IMG/VR virus record: IMGVR_UViG_3300029288_004944
Span: 64,001 to 128,000 of that record
From: a virus
Taxonomy: Duplodnaviria; Caudoviricetes
Strand: one strand, 5' to 3'
Length of the DNA stretch: 64,000 nucleotides
Shown: positions 3,668 through 55,443 of the stretch, one piece after another
Layout of the letters: each line of letters opens with the position of its first letter
Position numbering within the stretch: position 1 is the stretch's first letter
The notes under the pieces: model-generated
Told to the model about the DNA's origin: nothing
Seen by the model: only the letters and a program-made list of their open reading frames with translations
Database searches by the model: none
Translations under genes and position numbers: made by a program

Positions 3668-4344
3668 TTTAATTTACCACCTGCCATTATCAATTCTCTT
3701 GTTTTCACTACACCAACATTTGCGATCATATCTATTATAGATAGGCCGGGAATAAATTCTCCATACCTTTGAGTATATTTCGGTGTAGTATATTCTGAAA
3801 ACATAACCTTAATACCTGCTTTTTCAAATTTATCCATTTCTAAATATTTTCTACCACTTGGCCCAGATAGATAAGTATCTGCACCAACCTTTCTACAAAT
3901 AGAAATAAGTCTGTCAGTTCCGCTACTATCATTTTTACCACACGATTCAAAAACAGGCCTGAGTATCATCAACATATCCATTAATCTTCGTATCATCTCT
4001 TTTGTTGCAACTGATAATAATGTATTATTTTCAAAATTAGTATCTTTAAATAAATCCCATATTAATTTATTATCCTTCCCATAATAATCTTTAATAACAT
4101 TAAGATGCCTATACCACCAATAACAATTATCAATTTTTGTTTCTTCTATTGTTTGACCGAAATTACCAACAACAGGAATTGTTAACCATTTTGCCCCCTT
4201 ATCTGTTTTAATTTTTGTTCTATTATGATATCCCCCTTTTTTGAATTGAACGTTCTCTAAAATTACGAAAATATCCGATTGAGAAATTTTGTAGAAGAAA
4301 CCTGCATGGGGTAAATAGTCGGGTTGATGAATAGCAACAATCAT
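3658..4344 (-). CDS. WbqC-family protein
   Basis: AIHQPDYLP, NRTKIK, WLTIPV, YLSGPSGRKY, LSIID. Confidence 0.9.
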   Translation of the reverse strand: MIVAIHQPDYLPHAGFFYKISQSDIFVILENVQFKKGGYHNRTKIKTDKGAKWLTIPVVGNFGQTIEETKIDNCYWWYRHLNVIKDYYGKDNKLIWDLFKDTNFENNTLLSVATKEMIRRLMDMLMILRPVFESCGKNDSSGTDRLISICRKVGADTYLSGPSGRKYLEMDKFEKAGIKVMFSEYTTPKYTQRYGEFIPGLSIIDMIANVGVVKTRELIMAGGKLKWT

Positions 4345-6038
4345 TGTTTCCTCTTTTTATCCATTTTATAATCTTCTTCAATACTCCATTTTTTCTTGCC
4401 ACTCAATAACTCAGGATCCATATCTAAAAAATTATCTACCCCACCTAATACACGATTATCTCTTACTAAATCTACAACATCTTTCTCTCTATTAGTTCCA
4501 AGAGCAACAATGTTTCTAACTATCTCACAATTGTGATCTTGCACTGTAATCTTTTCAGTTTCTTTATTTAATTGTAATTGTGCAAATAATTGTTTACGGA
4601 ACATTTGATTCAATGGAAAATCATCCCAAAACATCATAAGAGGACTCTTGTAGTGAAAATACCCCAAATAAAATAAATTCCATTTTTTCAAAAATTCAAA
4701 AGCACCTCTATTAAAAGGCTCTTTTCTTTTATCCATTTGTTCTTCACTTAATGTCTTAATATGCTCATCATCCAAATGAGTCCAAGTCATACCTTTTAAT
4801 AATCCAACTCTATATCCACACAACCGAACTTTATAACAGTAATCTACCTCAAGATTTCCTGAAAACAATGCTTCATCCCATCCACCCAACTTATCAAAAA
4901 TTTCTCTTCTTGTCATCCAAATTCCGCCCATACAAAAGTCCACTTCATCAAAAATTCCCCTGTCAAGTCTTAAATGATGTCCTGGCTTATCCGGAGCCAA
5001 TATGCCAATTTCAGGATGTTCATCCATAACCTTAGCCATCTCATTAATCCAATCATTCTTATCAACCGTAATATCGCTTTCAATATGCACAAGGTACTTT
5101 CCATACGAACATTTAAAAGCCTTATTAAAATTCTGAGCAGGTCCGTGACAATCATTCTCATACCACACATTGATTCCATAATTCTTAGATTCAAAATCAC
5201 GAAGGACATTTTTTGTTGCTTCATCAGATGCATTATCCACAATGGTCATTCTATAATAATCAGAATTCCTATCTATAATGTCATTTAAAGTGGTTTTAAG
5301 GCTTTCTGGGCGGTTATAAGAAACAAGACAAACACTAACAGGGTATTTATCCCACTCTTTAACTTTAAGACCTTCCGGAGATATAATATGATTATAGTCT
5401 TTTGAGCCAGCCCCTGCCTTTAAAGGATCGGGATCTCTCTTTGTATAAAATTCATATTTATTTATTCTATCAATCTCATCCATATAACCAAAATGATGTA
5501 TTCTAACACAAGAATTTTTTAGTACATCACAACCAATAACCTCAGGAGAAACCGGGTTAGAATGGGCTATCACATCTCTTGGTCTCCATTCAAAATTATA
5601 TCTATAAGCCCTAACTGCATTAACCCTGCTATAATTACCATCAATCCTATAATGCTGCTCATCATTCCAATGATAAAAAAATGGAAAAGAATAAGCACGT
5701 GTTTCAGGCGTTGAACTCTCTATCAACTTTCTAATATCTTGTTCTTTACCCTCTTCAAACAATTCATCACCATCAAGCCATACAATAAAATCAGGATTAA
5801 ACTGTTTAACCTGATCATGCAAAAAATTCCAATCTCTCCCTCCATGGTAAGGTTTGTTTTGAAAAAATCTGAAATATTGTTTAAATTTATCTTTACTTGC
5901 ATCACACGCTTCGCCCGTTCCATCGGTTGATCCATCATCTAAAATCAATACACCATCCACGATCTTAGACATTTGATCCATTAATCTTGGCATATATTTA
6001 ACAACATTTTTTATTCGCATTAAACCAAAAATAATCAT
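4341..6038 (-). CDS. Two-domain GT2 glycosyltransferase fusion (likely start 6038)
   Basis: Domain 1 DDGSTDGT / WLDGDE / HFGY; domain 2 SYNRP / DNAS / HIESD / GGWDE; SD GAGG before the ATG at 6038. Confidence 0.85.
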   Translation of the reverse strand: MIIFGLMRIKNVVKYMPRLMDQMSKIVDGVLILDDGSTDGTGEACDASKDKFKQYFRFFQNKPYHGGRDWNFLHDQVKQFNPDFIVWLDGDELFEEGKEQDIRKLIESSTPETRAYSFPFFYHWNDEQHYRIDGNYSRVNAVRAYRYNFEWRPRDVIAHSNPVSPEVIGCDVLKNSCVRIHHFGYMDEIDRINKYEFYTKRDPDPLKAGAGSKDYNHIISPEGLKVKEWDKYPVSVCLVSYNRPESLKTTLNDIIDRNSDYYRMTIVDNASDEATKNVLRDFESKNYGINVWYENDCHGPAQNFNKAFKCSYGKYLVHIESDITVDKNDWINEMAKVMDEHPEIGILAPDKPGHHLRLDRGIFDEVDFCMGGIWMTRREIFDKLGGWDEALFSGNLEVDYCYKVRLCGYRVGLLKGMTWTHLDDEHIKTLSEEQMDKRKEPFNRGAFEFLKKWNLFYLGYFHYKSPLMMFWDDFPLNQMFRKQLFAQLQLNKETEKITVQDHNCEIVRNIVALGTNREKDVVDLVRDNRVLGGVDNFLDMDPELLSGKKKWSIEEDYKMDKKRKQ

Positions 6039-9475: not shown

Positions 9476-10188
9476 TCTTTTCTCCTATACAATAAACCTA
9501 TCTCTGTTTCATAGAAACCTGCGTCATTTATAATTTGATTAAAAACAACGGGATTGTTTATTATATCCGAATTTGATTGGACATGAATTGTATTTTTATT
9601 CACTCCTGTCCCACCAATATAAATATAATGATTACAATGACTTAATATACTTTTCAATGTTTCATCTGCTTTTGGAGTATGCTGTAATACTTGTTCACAA
9701 TAAATTATATCATAATTTTCTTTCAAAGGAGAATCTGTCAATACTAAAAATTTCATATCATATTTTAAAAACTTATAATAGGCTTGGATCATTTTAAATA
9801 ATGGAGTATTCAAATCAGCCAATGTAACCTTAAAACCTTTTTCATAAAAATTAATAGTTTTCCATCCTACACCACAACCATAATCAAGAAACGTCTCACA
9901 CTCTGAACCAACACACTTAATAACATCCCCATTAAAACAACCACAAGAATCAGATGTTCCCCTATATTCTTCTTGCTCTTTAAAAACTGTACCCTTACTA
10001 TAAATATCTGATGTCAAATAAAAATCTTCTATATTTTTTCCACCATAATCTTTCCATTTCTGCAGAGCATCATTGTATAAAGCGTTAAGACTTTTTGGTT
10101 TGTTCTTTTCCAAATCCCTCCAATACCGATATTCATCATTAGATATTTTCCAATATTCTCTTGCAAATTCATGTACTGTTTTATTCAC
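9472..10188 (-). CDS. Class I SAM-dependent methyltransferase
   Basis: FLDYGCGVG motif I, YDIIYCEQVLQH. Confidence 0.8.
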   Translation of the reverse strand: MNKTVHEFAREYWKISNDEYRYWRDLEKNKPKSLNALYNDALQKWKDYGGKNIEDFYLTSDIYSKGTVFKEQEEYRGTSDSCGCFNGDVIKCVGSECETFLDYGCGVGWKTINFYEKGFKVTLADLNTPLFKMIQAYYKFLKYDMKFLVLTDSPLKENYDIIYCEQVLQHTPKADETLKSILSHCNHYIYIGGTGVNKNTIHVQSNSDIINNPVVFNQIINDAGFYETEIGLLYRRKE

Positions 10189-23053: not shown

Positions 23054-24055
23054 TTATTTTAACCCCAATTTCGTTCTTATCTTTGCCTCAATTTCTTTGC
23101 ATATATCTTTATTCTCTTTTAAATATGCTCTTGCATTTTCTTGTCCTTGTCCGATCTTTTGCCCATTATATGCAAGCCATGATCCACTCTTTTCTATTAT
23201 ACCCTGCTCTGTCCCTAAATCCAAAATACAACCCTCTTTTGATATGCCCTGCCCATAAATAATATCGAATTCCGCTTTTCTGAAAGGGGGAGCAACTTTA
23301 TTTTTCTTTACTGTCATTTTAACCCTATTACCTATTTCAATATCTCCATTTTTAATTGCTTCCACTCTTCTAATATCCAATCTTACCGATGCATAGAACT
23401 TTAAAGCCCTGCCACCGGGAGTTACTTCCGGATTACCAAACATCATACCGACTTTCTCTCTTAATTGATTAATAAATATCATACAAGTTTTTGTTTTACT
23501 TATAGAAGATGTTAATTTTCTCAAAGCCTGAGACATCAACCTTGCCTGCAAGGCCATCTGTTGATCACCCATTTCTCCTTCAATTTCTGCCCTTGGCACA
23601 AGTGCTGCAACCGAATCTAATACTACAACATCTACGGCTCCGCTATTTACAAGAGTCTCTACAATTTCCAATGCCTGTTCGGCGGAATCGGGCTGAGAAA
23701 CAAGGAGATCATCGATATTAACTCCAAGTTTTTGGGCATAGGAGGGGTCAAGGGCGTGTTCTACATCTATAAATGCCACAGAGCCTCCCAACTTTTGAGC
23801 CTCAGCAATAATATGCAAAGTTAGTGTCGTCTTGCCTGAAGCATCGGGACCAAATATCTCTACAACCCTGCCACGTGGAACACCACCAATACCAAGAGCC
23901 ACATCGAGCGTTAATGCTCCCGTAGGAATTGCCTCTACGTGTGCCACACGATTATCACCCAACTTCATTATTGAACCTTTTCCAAACTGTTTCTCTATCT
24001 CGGCAATCGCAATATCTAATACCTTACTCTTACCACCATCTTTTTCTTCTGTCAT
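23054..24055 (-). CDS. recA: Recombinase RecA (likely start 24055)
   Basis: [39 protein letters not shown]. Confidence 0.97.
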
Positions 24056-33910: not shown

Positions 33911-34399
33911 TTATCTAACATTAGGCATAACAGCGCCCATTTGTTTTGAATCTTGCAAAACAGTCCAGTCATGACTCATTATTTCAGCCTCTTTATTTGA
34001 AATAAAATAAGTGGTATCATCTTTTGAACCTTTCAATATTTTACTCATTATAGTTTGCTCAACATCCGGTATTGGAATATAAATATGGGCAATATACCAA
34101 TTAAAATTTTTGGAATAAGGATTATCATCTGCTATCCTATAAATAATACTTACATAATAATAATCGAACAAGGGATCTTTCCCGTGTTTTGTAATCTGTG
34201 CCTTATATGATCCTTTTCGACAAAATAAAAATGTCCACACCTCCAAAAACATATCAAATGTAAAAGAAGATCTAAAAGGAATACCACCATCCATTATTGT
34301 ACTAAATGGCCATTGAATATAGGATGTAGTATATACCCTTGGCAAATCAGAAATATCGTCTTCTCCAAGTTTTTTAATTATCTCATCTTTCATATCCAT
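33911..34399 (-). CDS. Hypothetical protein with an MDIKQD-type leader on a non-MORN body
   Basis: MDMKDEIIKKLGEDDISDLPR aligns without gaps to the 3389-3667 leader. Confidence 0.65.
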   Translation of the reverse strand: MDMKDEIIKKLGEDDISDLPRVYTTSYIQWPFSTIMDGGIPFRSSFTFDMFLEVWTFLFCRKGSYKAQITKHGKDPLFDYYYVSIIYRIADDNPYSKNFNWYIAHIYIPIPDVEQTIMSKILKGSKDDTTYFISNKEAEIMSHDWTVLQDSKQMGAVMPNVR

Positions 34400-34410
34400 A
34401 AAAAATCCTT

Positions 34411-34602
34411 TTATTTCTTCTTAAATTTCTTACATTTTTCTCTCATTTTCATTTCTTTAAATGCATCACTAACAGAACAGACCGCAGGACTTTTTGCTTT
34501 TTTTACATTACCAATCTTCCCCATTTGTTTTATAATCTTATCACATCCCCACCCAAGTTCAATATTACCATTTTTTCTTATGTGCACAAAAATTTTAGAC
34601 AT
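34411..34602 (-). CDS. Small basic hypothetical protein
   Basis: 63-aa ORF with GGGGG SD. Confidence 0.5.
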   Translation of the reverse strand: MSKIFVHIRKNGNIELGWGCDKIIKQMGKIGNVKKAKSPAVCSVSDAFKEMKMREKCKKFKKK

Positions 34603-34616
34603 ATATCCCCCTGTTT

Positions 34617-34718
34617 ATAAAACGGTAAGACTCTTGGCAGTATAATTAGCGGAACGAAATACCATAATAGCATACTGCTGTATTATGATAACCCTAACAA
34701 AAGCCTTTAACCGCCTAT
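34617..34718 (-). ncRNA. Unassigned structured RNA (rod with potential pseudoknot)
   Basis: Nested helices with several G-U pairs valid only on the minus strand; loop GCAGTAT complementary to bulge ATACTGC. Confidence 0.6.
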
Positions 34719-34725
34719 TTTTCAA

Positions 34726-34926
34726 CTAACATATATGATCAGTTACAACCTCATCCACCGGCTGTTCATAACTATAATCCCTATTGGCATCCATTTTAAC
34801 AGCCGAACCCAATGCTCCCTGTATCTGTTCAACAATACCCTTACAAGACTTCCCAAGATTCTGACCCTCAGGTAAAGATATATCCACTTTCCCCATTCTA
34901 TCTATCCTTATTTTTACAATCGCCAT
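34726..34926 (-). CDS. DUF2997-like protein
   Basis: IRIDRMGKV...GKSC...ALG pattern; adjacent to DUF1257 and AAA genes. Confidence 0.65.
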   Translation of the reverse strand: MAIVKIRIDRMGKVDISLPEGQNLGKSCKGIVEQIQGALGSAVKMDANRDYSYEQPVDEVVTDHIC

Positions 34927-34942
34927 ACTAACCTCCCCTTTT

Positions 34943-35275
34943 TTATCCTACTTCAATCTCCATAAGAATGTCTTCATTGATATTGTCATCCCTTTGTATT
35001 ACACCACTCATATTTTCCGCAATGCTGTAAACCATTCTATGAGCATATTCCCTTAAAAACTTATAAGCATCGGAACTTGTTCTGCCATAACACACATAAA
35101 GCCCTTGACTATTCTTTTTAAAACCAAAACTACCACAATTAATGTCCACCTCTTGCACATCATTGTGCTCTCTAATAGTCCCACCCTCTTTAACCTCGTG
35201 GCCCATTTCTGTCAAGATGCTCTTCAAACAATCCAAATCCCTAATCTCCGTCTCTACCTTTGCTACATAACTCAT
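34943..35275 (-). CDS. DUF1257 (Ycf35)-like protein
   Basis: MSYVAKVETEIRDLDCL...LTEMG...FGFKKN..GLY. Confidence 0.7.
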   Translation of the reverse strand: MSYVAKVETEIRDLDCLKSILTEMGHEVKEGGTIREHNDVQEVDINCGSFGFKKNSQGLYVCYGRTSSDAYKFLREYAHRMVYSIAENMSGVIQRDDNINEDILMEIEVG

Positions 35276-45271: not shown

Positions 45272-45314
45272 TTCTTCTCCTTTGTACTTAAATCCCATAT
45301 CCCATCCTACATAT

Positions 45315-45343
45315 ATTATAGCATACTTTATGGTAAAAGTCAA
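45315..45343 (-). promoter_or_regulatory. Sigma70 promoter TTGACT-N17-TATAAT with conserved leader
   Basis: TTGACTTTTACCATAAAGTATGCTATAAT, followed by ATATGTAGGATGGGATATGGGATTTAA. Confidence 0.85.
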
Positions 45344-45353
45344 GAAAAAAATG

Positions 45354-54803: not shown

Positions 54804-54912
54804 TGGACCCGGCAGGACTCGAACCTACGTCTTTTGGAGACATACAGAAAATTGTGCACATTCTCAGTATATCTTTATTCCAGTTATGGCTTTGCCAATC
54901 GCCCACAGGCCC
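54804..54912 (-). tRNA. Aberrant tRNA-like RNA (109 nt; anticodon arm expanded, identity unclear)
   Basis: Acceptor GGGCCTG/CGGGTCC+A, D-arm GGC-GATTGGCAAA-GCC, T-arm GTAGG-TTCGAGT-CCTGC. Confidence 0.7.
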
Positions 54913-55355: not shown

Positions 55356-55398
55356 TTAATTCCCCCTTTCTTTAAATCCCTTATCTCATCCTACACAT

Positions 55399-55427
55399 AT
55401 TATAACATACTTTTAATCTAAAGTCAA
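55399..55427 (-). promoter_or_regulatory. Sigma70 promoter TTGACT-N17-TATAAT with conserved leader
   Basis: TTGACTTTAGATTAAAAGTATGTTATAAT, followed by ATGTGTAGGATGAGATAAGGGATTTAA. Confidence 0.85.
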
Positions 55428-55443
55428 GGGAAATCTTTTCCAC

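What the first reader, a model, noticed from the sequence alone, without database searches (positions are those of the whole stretch)
34617..34718. Unannotated ~100-nt rod-shaped RNA with a perfect 7-bp loop-to-bulge pairing
Seen on the minus strand, nested helices: GGCGGT/ACCGTT, AAGGCTTTTG/CAAGAGTCTT (10 bp), TTAG-GG/CC-G-CTAA and TATCATAATA/TATTATGGTA (10 bp). At least five G-U pairs work only on the transcribed strand. The apical loop contains GCAGTAT, exactly complementary to ATACTGC in the 3' bulge, giving a pseudoknot or an alternative fold. The element lies just after the AAA/DUF1257/DUF2997 genes and just before the next SD. It has no long U-tail and is too large for a terminator. Inference: a novel ncRNA, conformational switch, ribozyme or RNase III-type processing site.
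Basis: partly seen in the sequence, partly recalled or inferred. Interest (0 to 1): 0.7.

Follow-up and report, generated by a model that had tools for sequence, protein, structure and literature searches.

The report
Hairpin linking stop and next start
The gap between two small genes of an uncultured landfill jumbo phage can fold into a roughly 100-nt hairpin, but the fold is only modestly better than chance, has no second copy and does not align in the nearest relative. It is most likely an ordinary mRNA structure that ties translation of the downstream gene to the upstream one, not a new RNA class.

Summary
The helices and the exact 7-nt loop-to-bulge complementarity are in the sequence as described.

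- **Fold stability:** It is only -0.98 for the gene-defined 123-nt spacer.
- **Genome rank:** the element is the 30th most stable distinct 102-nt locus on its strand.
- **Known families:** there is no Rfam match, no second copy in the 139-kb contig, and no homologue in any collection.
- **Nearest relative:** in the only relative found, a groundwater contig about 90% identical on both flanks, the hairpin body is replaced by 234 unalignable letters.
- **Pseudoknot:** it is better read as a nested alternative helix, at -26.3 against -27.0 kcal/mol.
- **New observation:** the rod is closed by a helix between the last codons of the upstream ORF and the start codon of the next ORF. This stop-to-start pairing is the strongest of 46 spacers and depends on the rod.

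Best reading (confidence about 0.35) is an intercistronic hairpin giving translational coupling by RNA unfolding, a known kind. A neutral structure is nearly as likely. An independent ncRNA or ribozyme is unlikely. Interest is low.

The parts
34726..34926 (-).
   Evidence: ORF list. No Pfam or PHROG hit. In the relative's contig the neighbouring 110-aa gene differs mostly at third codon positions, which supports these small genes being real.
34729..34740 (-). 5' arm of closing helix P0: the last four codons of the upstream ORF, core heptamer at 34731-34737
   Evidence: Pairs with 34598-34606 at probability 0.79, 0.54 and 0.39 in 190-, 351- and 516-nt contexts. Duplex energy is -7.7 kcal/mol.
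34621..34716 (-). Rod-shaped hairpin (P1, P2, then P3+P4 or the alternative interior)
   Evidence: MFE -27.0, z -3.07 / -2.5. P1 and P2 have pair probability 0.999 in isolation, falling to 0.56-0.97 in longer contexts.
34660..34690 (-). Apical hairpin P4 (10 bp) with an 11-nt loop; the MFE adds 4 bp and a triloop inside the loop
   Evidence: Pair probability 0.84-0.91 in all contexts.
34672..34678 (-). Loop heptamer, 5' arm of the alternative helix
   Evidence: Exact complement of 34637-34643, P = 6.5e-4. The constrained fold gives -26.3 kcal/mol.
34637..34643 (-). 3' bulge heptamer, 3' arm of the alternative helix; it abuts the P2 3' arm, so the helix would stack on P2
   Evidence: the alternative fold has pair probability 0.16.
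34617..34620 (-). Short U-rich tail (four U, then A, U) directly after P1
   Evidence: Sequence. The tool's terminator scan did not call it.
34598..34611 (-). Shine-Dalgarno G-run (34607-34611) and start codon (34600-34602) of the next ORF; 3' arm of P0
   Evidence: The start codon is predicted unpaired with probability only 0.03-0.06. RBS accessibility ranks 25th lowest of 194 genes.
34411..34602 (-). Downstream ORF, 63 aa, no family assignment
   Evidence: No similarity to the upstream 66-aa protein.

Best explanation
The element is a cis-acting part of a polycistronic phage mRNA, not a separate RNA gene. The 96-nt rod acts as a clamp. It brings the end of the upstream 66-aa ORF and the ribosome-binding site of the downstream 63-aa ORF together, although they are 123 nt apart. 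A weak closing helix can then form, between the last codons before the UAG and the start codon with part of the Shine-Dalgarno run, and it hides the start codon. A ribosome finishing the upstream ORF sits on the 5' arm of that helix. Its footprint reaches the first bases of P1, so the downstream start is freed only when the upstream gene is translated. This is translational coupling by RNA unfolding.

Shown here, in silico only: the helices, their predicted probabilities, the dependence of start-codon masking on the rod, and the uniqueness of this arrangement among the phage's spacers.

Inferred: that ribosomes open the structure and that downstream expression depends on it. The loop-to-bulge complementarity has no role in this model and remains unexplained.
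For: - In 190- to 516-nt contexts the start codon region pairs with 34729-34737 at probability 0.39-0.79. Total pairing of the AUG is 0.6-0.96.
- The expected number of stop-region to RBS-region pairs is 11.0, the highest of 46 same-strand spacers of 40-300 nt. The next is 5.7 and most are near 0.
- Shuffling only the rod drops that score to a mean of 0.94 (1 of 200 shuffles reaches the native value). It also raises the AUG unpaired probability from 0.03 to 0.42.
- A perfect complement of 7 nt or more between an ORF end and an RBS occurs in 0.77% of all end/RBS combinations in this genome. Among the 73 adjacent pairs with gaps of 25 nt or more, only this one has it.
- The median intergenic gap in this genome is 14 nt, so a 123-nt gap would otherwise break the tight coupling that is usual here.
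- The spacer bases that still align in the relative are those next to the stop codon (34716-34725) and the 24 nt holding the U-tail and SD (34603-34626).
- The mechanism is established elsewhere: rpmI-rplT at +52 nt spacing, f1 genes VII/IX, and MS2 coat-lysis (review PMC12548453).
Against: - All of the support is thermodynamic prediction, found post hoc.
- The closing helix is seven A-U/C-G pairs drawn from an AU repeat, which is low complexity and slips between two registers.
- With 73 gene pairs, about 0.56 such complements are expected by chance.
- The rod is statistically modest: z -0.98 on the gene-defined spacer.
- P1 and P2 fall to probability 0.56 in a 516-nt context.
- The rod body is not kept in the nearest relative. 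No covariation test is possible.
- The model does not explain the 7-nt loop-to-bulge complementarity (P = 6.5e-4).
- RBS masking ranks only 25th of 194 genes.
Confidence: 0.35

Rival explanations
1. No selected function. This reading treats it as a lineage-specific, fast-evolving spacer, perhaps an indel scar or the remnant of a gained or lost small gene. It happens to fold because the mRNA strand is G+U-rich and AU-repetitive.
For: - z is only -0.98 for the gene-defined spacer and -0.36 for 211 nt.
- It is the 30th distinct locus genome-wide, and 24 of the 29 above it lie in coding sequence. It ranks 12th of 33 spacers.
- It is a singleton with no Rfam match.
- In the relative, 34627-34715 is replaced by 234 other letters while the flanks stay 89-94% identical.
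- The minus strand folds 5.2 kcal/mol better than the plus strand everywhere in this genome.
Against: Three separate low-probability features fall in one spacer: the rod (about 4-5 of 250 shuffles on its own boundaries), the loop-to-bulge heptamer (6.5e-4), and the stop-to-start complement (0.77%). It is also the clear outlier for stop-to-start pairing. Third-position divergence of the flanks is about 30%, so failure to align at 80% does not prove that the hairpin is absent in the relative.
Confidence: 0.3
2. An mRNA-level punctuation mark at the end of the AAA module. It could be a weak intrinsic terminator or attenuator, an RNase III-type processing site, or a 3' stabilising hairpin that sets the ratio of upstream to downstream message.
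For: - P1 is followed at once by four U, then A, U.
- P1+P2+P3, or P1+P2 plus the alternative helix, gives 23-25 bp of nearly continuous duplex. From my own knowledge, that is about the two helical turns RNase III needs, and it is interrupted by internal loops as in the intercistronic sites of phage T7.
- The phage has few canonical terminators.
Against: - The terminator scan does not call it.
- The hairpin is 96 nt, AU-rich and branched by internal loops. The U-run is short and is followed 10 nt later by a strong SD, so read-through is clearly intended.
- The phage's own good terminator candidates are compact GC-rich stems with 5-7 U.
- Nothing here tests cleavage. The host and its RNases are unknown.
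Confidence: 0.2
3. One reading: an independent structured ncRNA, a bistable switch, a riboswitch or a self-cleaving ribozyme.
For: - There are two nearly isoenergetic interiors (-27.0 against -26.3 kcal/mol).
- The heptamer complementarity is unlikely by chance.
- Stability is strand-specific.
Against: - No promoter of the phage's own very sharp promoter family lies here (PWM -29.6 bits against 40-50 for the 11 members).
- There is no terminator, no Rfam family, no paralogue and no homologue.
- The sequence is not retained at 80% or more in a relative whose flanks are about 90% identical.
- Switching between the two interiors leaves P1, P2, the SD and the U-tail untouched, so it has no obvious output.
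Confidence: 0.07
4. An internal sigma-70-type promoter with an extended -10 (hexamers at 34686-34691 and 34664-34669, 16-nt spacer, TG two bases upstream) that drives the downstream genes. On this reading the hairpin is incidental.
For: - The promoter scan lists it with 9 of 12 matches and the TG motif.
- Only 27 sites with an extended -10 and at least 4 of 6 matches in the -35 hexamer exist on this strand of the 139-kb contig.
Against: - It is not a member of the phage's promoter family. It ranks 5283rd by the full PWM and 357th by the -10 half, with 204 equal or better sites on the opposite strand.
- The 10-mer it shares with type-B promoters is at chance level (7 matches against 5.2 expected).
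- Promoter-like hits in this AT-rich region equal the shuffled expectation (23 against 21.7).
Confidence: 0.05

Closest known systems
Translational coupling by RNA unfolding (E. coli rpmI-rplT, phage f1 genes VII/IX, MS2 coat-lysis; review PMC12548453)
   Same: The downstream start is masked by pairing with sequence that ribosomes on the upstream ORF must occupy. The rpmI-rplT case shows that coupling works across a positive spacing of tens of nucleotides (+52 nt there).
   Different: The spacing here is 123 nt and is bridged by a dedicated 96-nt rod. The masking helix is short and AU-rich. Dependence on upstream translation is untested.
Ribosome termination structure, RTS (Chemla et al. 2020, PMC7518266)
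   Same: It is a stable mRNA structure downstream of a stop codon inside an operon that influences what the next cistron receives. The paper reports such structures after 18-66% of genes.
   Different: The RTS is a local fold (-6 kcal/mol or lower per 40-nt window) centred about 5 nt after the stop, and it insulates against re-initiation. Here the 40-nt windows just after the stop reach only -3.0 kcal/mol, because the 5' arms pair with partners 70-90 nt away.
Intercistronic RNase III processing hairpins of phage T7 (own knowledge, not tested here)
   Same: They are irregular hairpins with internal loops, about two helical turns long, between genes of a long phage transcript. They have no U-rich terminator tail.
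   Different: The T7 sites are about 60 nt and form a recognisable repeated family within one genome. This element is a singleton, and no cleavage evidence exists.
Rho-independent terminators and attenuators
   Same: A hairpin is followed directly by a run of U.
   Different: The stem is far longer, AU-rich and interrupted. The U-run has four U. The scan did not call it, and the phage's clear terminator candidates look different.

Membership tests
Any Rfam 15 family | Covariance-model score at or above the family's gathering threshold | tested here: not met
   No match on the element at gathering thresholds across the window. At E <= 10 over 34300-35000 there are only three chance-level hits, all outside the element.
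Translational coupling by RNA unfolding | The downstream RBS or start codon is sequestered in secondary structure | tested here: met
   Prediction only. AUG unpaired probability is 0.03-0.06. RBS accessibility is 0.33 against a median of 0.53, ranking 25th of 194.
Translational coupling by RNA unfolding | The masking strand lies where ribosomes translating or terminating the upstream ORF occupy it | tested here: met
   The partner is 34729-34740, the last four codons before the UAG.
Translational coupling by RNA unfolding | Downstream translation depends on upstream translation | not testable with these tools
   This needs reporter fusions. No RNA or ribosome-profiling data are available.
Ribosome termination structure (RTS) | [quoted passage not shown] | tested here: not met
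   Windows starting from 2 nt before the stop codon to 16 nt after it reach only -3.0 to -3.1 kcal/mol. Values of -7 to -9.6 appear only at the apical hairpin, about 26-36 nt downstream.
Intrinsic terminator | A compact G+C-rich stem-loop immediately followed by a U-tract | tested here: not met
   Not called by the scan.
RNase III processing site | About 20 bp or more of quasi-continuous duplex | tested here: met
   23-25 bp in either fold, interrupted by bulges.
RNase III processing site | Specific cleavage by RNase III | not testable with these tools
   No RNA-end data are available and the host is unknown.
This phage's sigma-70-type promoter family (11 copies) | Consensus -35 hexamer, 17-nt conserved spacer and extended -10 | tested here: not met
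   PWM score is -29.6 bits against 40.6-50.3 for the members. The next best non-member scores 8.0.
H-type pseudoknot | Hairpin-loop bases pair with a downstream single strand while the hairpin stem stays formed and the linkers are long enough | tested here: inconclusive
   The complementarity is exact. It excludes P3. With P2 formed, a 7-nt linker (34691-34697) would have to span about 17 stacked bp, which is a geometric inference. No pseudoknot energy model was run.
Conserved structured ncRNA (riboswitch or ribozyme class) | Homologues with covarying base pairs | tested here: not met
   No homologue in the phage records, IMG/VR, JGI metagenomes or GTDB genomes. The only relative does not align across the rod.

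The most novel reading that the evidence does not exclude
The rod works as a prokaryotic shunt. A ribosome or 30S subunit terminating at the UAG is handed across the base of the hairpin to the SD and AUG held next to it, skipping 123 nt. This would be formally like the stop-plus-hairpin shunt on the cauliflower mosaic virus 35S leader, or the hairpin-assisted bypass in T4 gene 60 (both from my own knowledge). The bistable interior, loop-to-bulge helix against P3+P4, would tune how tightly the two sites are held.
Probability: 0.05. Interest if true: 0.6.

Novelty: new member of a known kind. Interest (0 to 1): 0.2.

Why it matters
If the coupling reading is right, it would be a clear natural case of a long hairpin used to keep two cistrons translationally coupled across a large gap. 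That is mildly useful for operon design and for annotating jumbo-phage mRNAs, but the principle is textbook. The main value of this check is negative. The element should not be counted as a new ncRNA, ribozyme or riboswitch candidate on present evidence. Its z-score is an example of how boundaries chosen to fit a fold inflate significance.

Tried and rejected
- **Rfam:** gathering and E <= 10 searches gave nothing on the element.
- **Homologues for covariation:** none found. I tried blastn against phage records, the AAA and 66-aa proteins in IMG/VR, the same two in JGI metagenomes, and exact patterns from the element and both flanks in IMG/VR and GTDB genomes.
  - The 5.8-billion-protein search found only itself for the 110-aa protein. 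For the AAA protein it found nothing closer than 48% identity.
  - The two loci retrieved (L002 at 40%, L003 at 43% AAA identity) have a different gene order and no match to the model.
  - The nearest cultured-phage AAA proteins are 37% identical or less.
- **Sequencing runs:** no RNA holder was listed, so there is no expression or end data. The 234 letters that replace the rod in run X4 are not printed by read laying and could not be fetched.
- **Promoter idea:** rejected by PWM and by the chance level of the shared 10-mer.
- **Short ORFs in the spacer:** the TTG-start 36-aa and ATG-start 31-aa ORFs have no SD and no family hit.
- **Tandem paralogues:** the idea that the two flanking small proteins are tandem paralogues was rejected by BLASTP.
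- **Translational bypass:** landing on the repeated octamer near the start codon enters a frame that stops after 7 codons, by reading, so the idea was dropped.
- **Failed run:** the first genome-wide fold scan timed out and was repeated with a coarser step.

Full report
**Context.** The window is bases 64001-128000 of a 139-kb IMG/VR virus record. CheckV puts completeness at 45%, so it is probably a jumbo phage. The only full holder is a landfill metagenome. By a heuristic gene call, 195 of 206 ORFs lie on the minus strand and the median gap is 14 nt. The mRNA strand is strongly G-over-C skewed: A 36.7, T 30.1, G 22.8, C 10.4%. The finding sits in a 123-nt gap (34603-34725) between a 66-aa ORF (34726-34926) and a 63-aa ORF (34411-34602), downstream of a 511-aa AAA ATPase (Pfam AAA, E 2e-29; phrog_8638, E 9e-124).

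- The four helices, five G-U pairs and the exact 7-nt loop/bulge complementarity are present.
- ViennaRNA gives -27.0 kcal/mol on the minus strand (z -3.07, 0 of 200 shuffles) and -14.7 (z -0.33) on the plus strand.
- P1 and P2 are near-certain in isolation (0.999) and P4 is at 0.84.

**Is it more than chance?** Only modestly.
- With boundaries set by the genes rather than by the fold, z is -1.3 or -0.98, with 31 of 200 shuffles as good. It is -0.36 for 211 nt. The drop comes from including the G-run of the Shine-Dalgarno sequence, which shuffles use for pairing.
- In a scan of all 102-nt windows of the 139-kb contig, the element is 49th of 8197 on its strand and the 30th distinct locus. Of the 29 above it, 24 lie in coding sequence.
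- Among 33 same-strand spacers it ranks 12th by z.
- Strand specificity is partly generic. Minus-strand windows average -14.5 kcal/mol against -9.3 for the plus strand, as expected when G is twice as common as C and can wobble-pair with U.
- The heptamer complementarity is the one feature with a small probability: 6.5e-4 when the interior unpaired bases are shuffled.

**Pseudoknot or alternative fold?** Forcing the heptamer helix gives a nested structure at -26.3 kcal/mol. In it the helix (8 pairs with one G-U) stacks directly on P2, and 19 nt bulge out on the 5' side. It holds 16% of the ensemble.
- As a pseudoknot it would exclude P3.
- With P2 in place, a 7-nt linker would have to span about 17 stacked base pairs. 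This is my geometric inference.
- So this is a bistable interior, not a knot. Either interior leaves P1, P2, the SD and the U-tail unchanged, so a switch has no evident output.

**Known families and copies.**
- Rfam gives nothing.
- A covariance model of the single sequence finds only itself in the whole contig and in two distant loci.
- BLAST within the genome finds one copy.
- The spacer carries a sigma-70-like site with an extended -10. The phage, however, has a very sharp promoter family of 11 minus-strand copies in two flavours, with PWM scores of 40-50 bits against 8 or less for everything else. The candidate scores -29.6.
- The shared 10-mer is at chance level.
- The terminator scan does not call the element. 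The phage's convincing terminator candidates are compact GC-rich stems with 5-7 U.

**Comparative evidence.**
- The one informative result comes from laying Logan contigs on the region. A 529-nt contig from a groundwater metagenome matches 34474-34626 (17 differences) and 34716-34851 (8 differences), but carries 234 other letters in place of 34627-34715.
- What is kept is the 10 nt after the stop codon and the 24 nt holding the P1 3' arm, the U-tail and the SD. What is not kept is the body of the rod.
- In the neighbouring 110-aa gene, 14 of the 19 listed differences fall at third codon positions (my count). The genes are therefore under purifying selection, and neutral divergence is about 30%.
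- An unconstrained spacer would thus fail the 80% alignment threshold anyway. The result shows lack of strong sequence constraint and a 145-nt length change, not proven absence of a hairpin.

**What the surroundings add.**
- In longer contexts the rod is extended by a closing helix. The last codons of the upstream ORF (34729-34740, ending just before the UAG at 34726-34728) pair with the start codon and part of the SD of the next ORF (34598-34611). This appears in both the MFE and the centroid. Pair probabilities are 0.79, 0.54 and 0.39 in 190-, 351- and 516-nt contexts, and the duplex energy is -7.7 kcal/mol.
- The AUG is predicted unpaired with probability 0.03-0.06. RBS accessibility is 0.33 against a genome median of 0.53, the 25th lowest of 194.
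- The expected number of stop-region to RBS-region pairs is 11.0, the top of 46 spacers. The next is 5.7 and most are near 0.
- Shuffling only the rod lowers this to a mean of 0.94 (1 of 200 shuffles reaches it) and frees the AUG to 0.42.
- A complement of 7 nt or more between an ORF end and an RBS occurs in 0.77% of all combinations in this genome. Of the 73 adjacent pairs, this is the only one that has it, though about 0.56 would be expected by chance.

**Mechanism proposed.** The rod clamps the stop and start sites together so that a weak helix can mask the start. A terminating ribosome occupies the 5' arm and frees the start. This is the RNA-unfolding model of translational coupling, documented for rpmI-rplT (+52 nt), f1 VII/IX and MS2 coat-lysis (PMC12548453).
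- It is not the local ribosome termination structure of Chemla et al. Its -6 kcal/mol criterion in a 40-nt window just after the stop is not met.
- I put this reading at about 0.35, a neutral structure at 0.30, a terminator, RNase III or stability hairpin at 0.20, an independent ncRNA, switch or ribozyme at 0.07, and a promoter at 0.05.
- The loop-to-bulge heptamer remains unexplained by the leading model.

**Verdict.** The hairpin is real in the sequence, but it is a marginally significant, singleton, non-conserved intercistronic structure. If it is functional, it most plausibly belongs to a known kind of cis-acting mRNA element. Interest is low.

Noticed in passing
window -35 starts (minus strand) at 55427, 45343, 39502, 38117, 28898, 2140; outside the window at G000 131008, 51005, 38213, 27314, 8592: There are eleven near-identical sigma-70-type promoters with a consensus -35, a 17-nt conserved spacer and an extended -10. 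They come in two flavours, 7 of type A and 4 of type B. PWM scores are 40-50 bits against 8 or less for the rest of the contig, so this is a very sharp, probably early, promoter family.
   Followed up: partly
window 55356-55443 and 45272-45353 (minus strand): Both spacers hold a type-B promoter inside a strand-specific hairpin (z -5.19 and -4.25; 0 of 200 shuffles). The pyrimidine-rich 5' arm, which runs into the -35 hexamer, pairs with the SD region of the next gene. Read-through transcripts would therefore have the SD masked, and promoter-initiated transcripts would not. The two copies differ in both arms in a way that keeps the pairing. These are better candidates for a regulatory RNA structure than the finding itself.
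   Followed up: partly
window 54804-54912 (minus strand): Rfam calls a tRNA (34.5 bits against a threshold of 29) spanning 109 nt, but ARAGORN finds no tRNA in the window. It is either an interrupted or unusual tRNA, or a false positive.
   Followed up: partly
G000 23437-23627 (outside the window), window 10114-10184: These are other spacers with strongly strand-specific predicted structure (z -4.64 and -3.43 on the mRNA strand). G000 4301-4402 is the most stable 102-nt window of the contig.
   Followed up: no
The 110-aa protein has only a weak PHROG hit (phrog_20456, E 0.005) and no relative among 5.8 billion proteins. The family labels rest on motif resemblance only.
   Followed up: partly
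window 33992-34026: A 35-nt stretch inside the 162-aa ORF is matched (5 differences) by high-depth contigs (52-105x) in three other landfill and groundwater runs, with unrelated sequence on both sides. It may be a short motif shared with an abundant unrelated organism, or a chance match.
   Followed up: no
whole contig: There is extreme coding-strand bias (195 of 206 heuristic ORFs on one strand) with G 22.8% against C 10.4% on the mRNA strand. As a result, every mRNA-strand window folds about 5 kcal/mol better than its complement. This confounds any 'G-U pairs work on one strand only' argument in this genome.
   Followed up: yes
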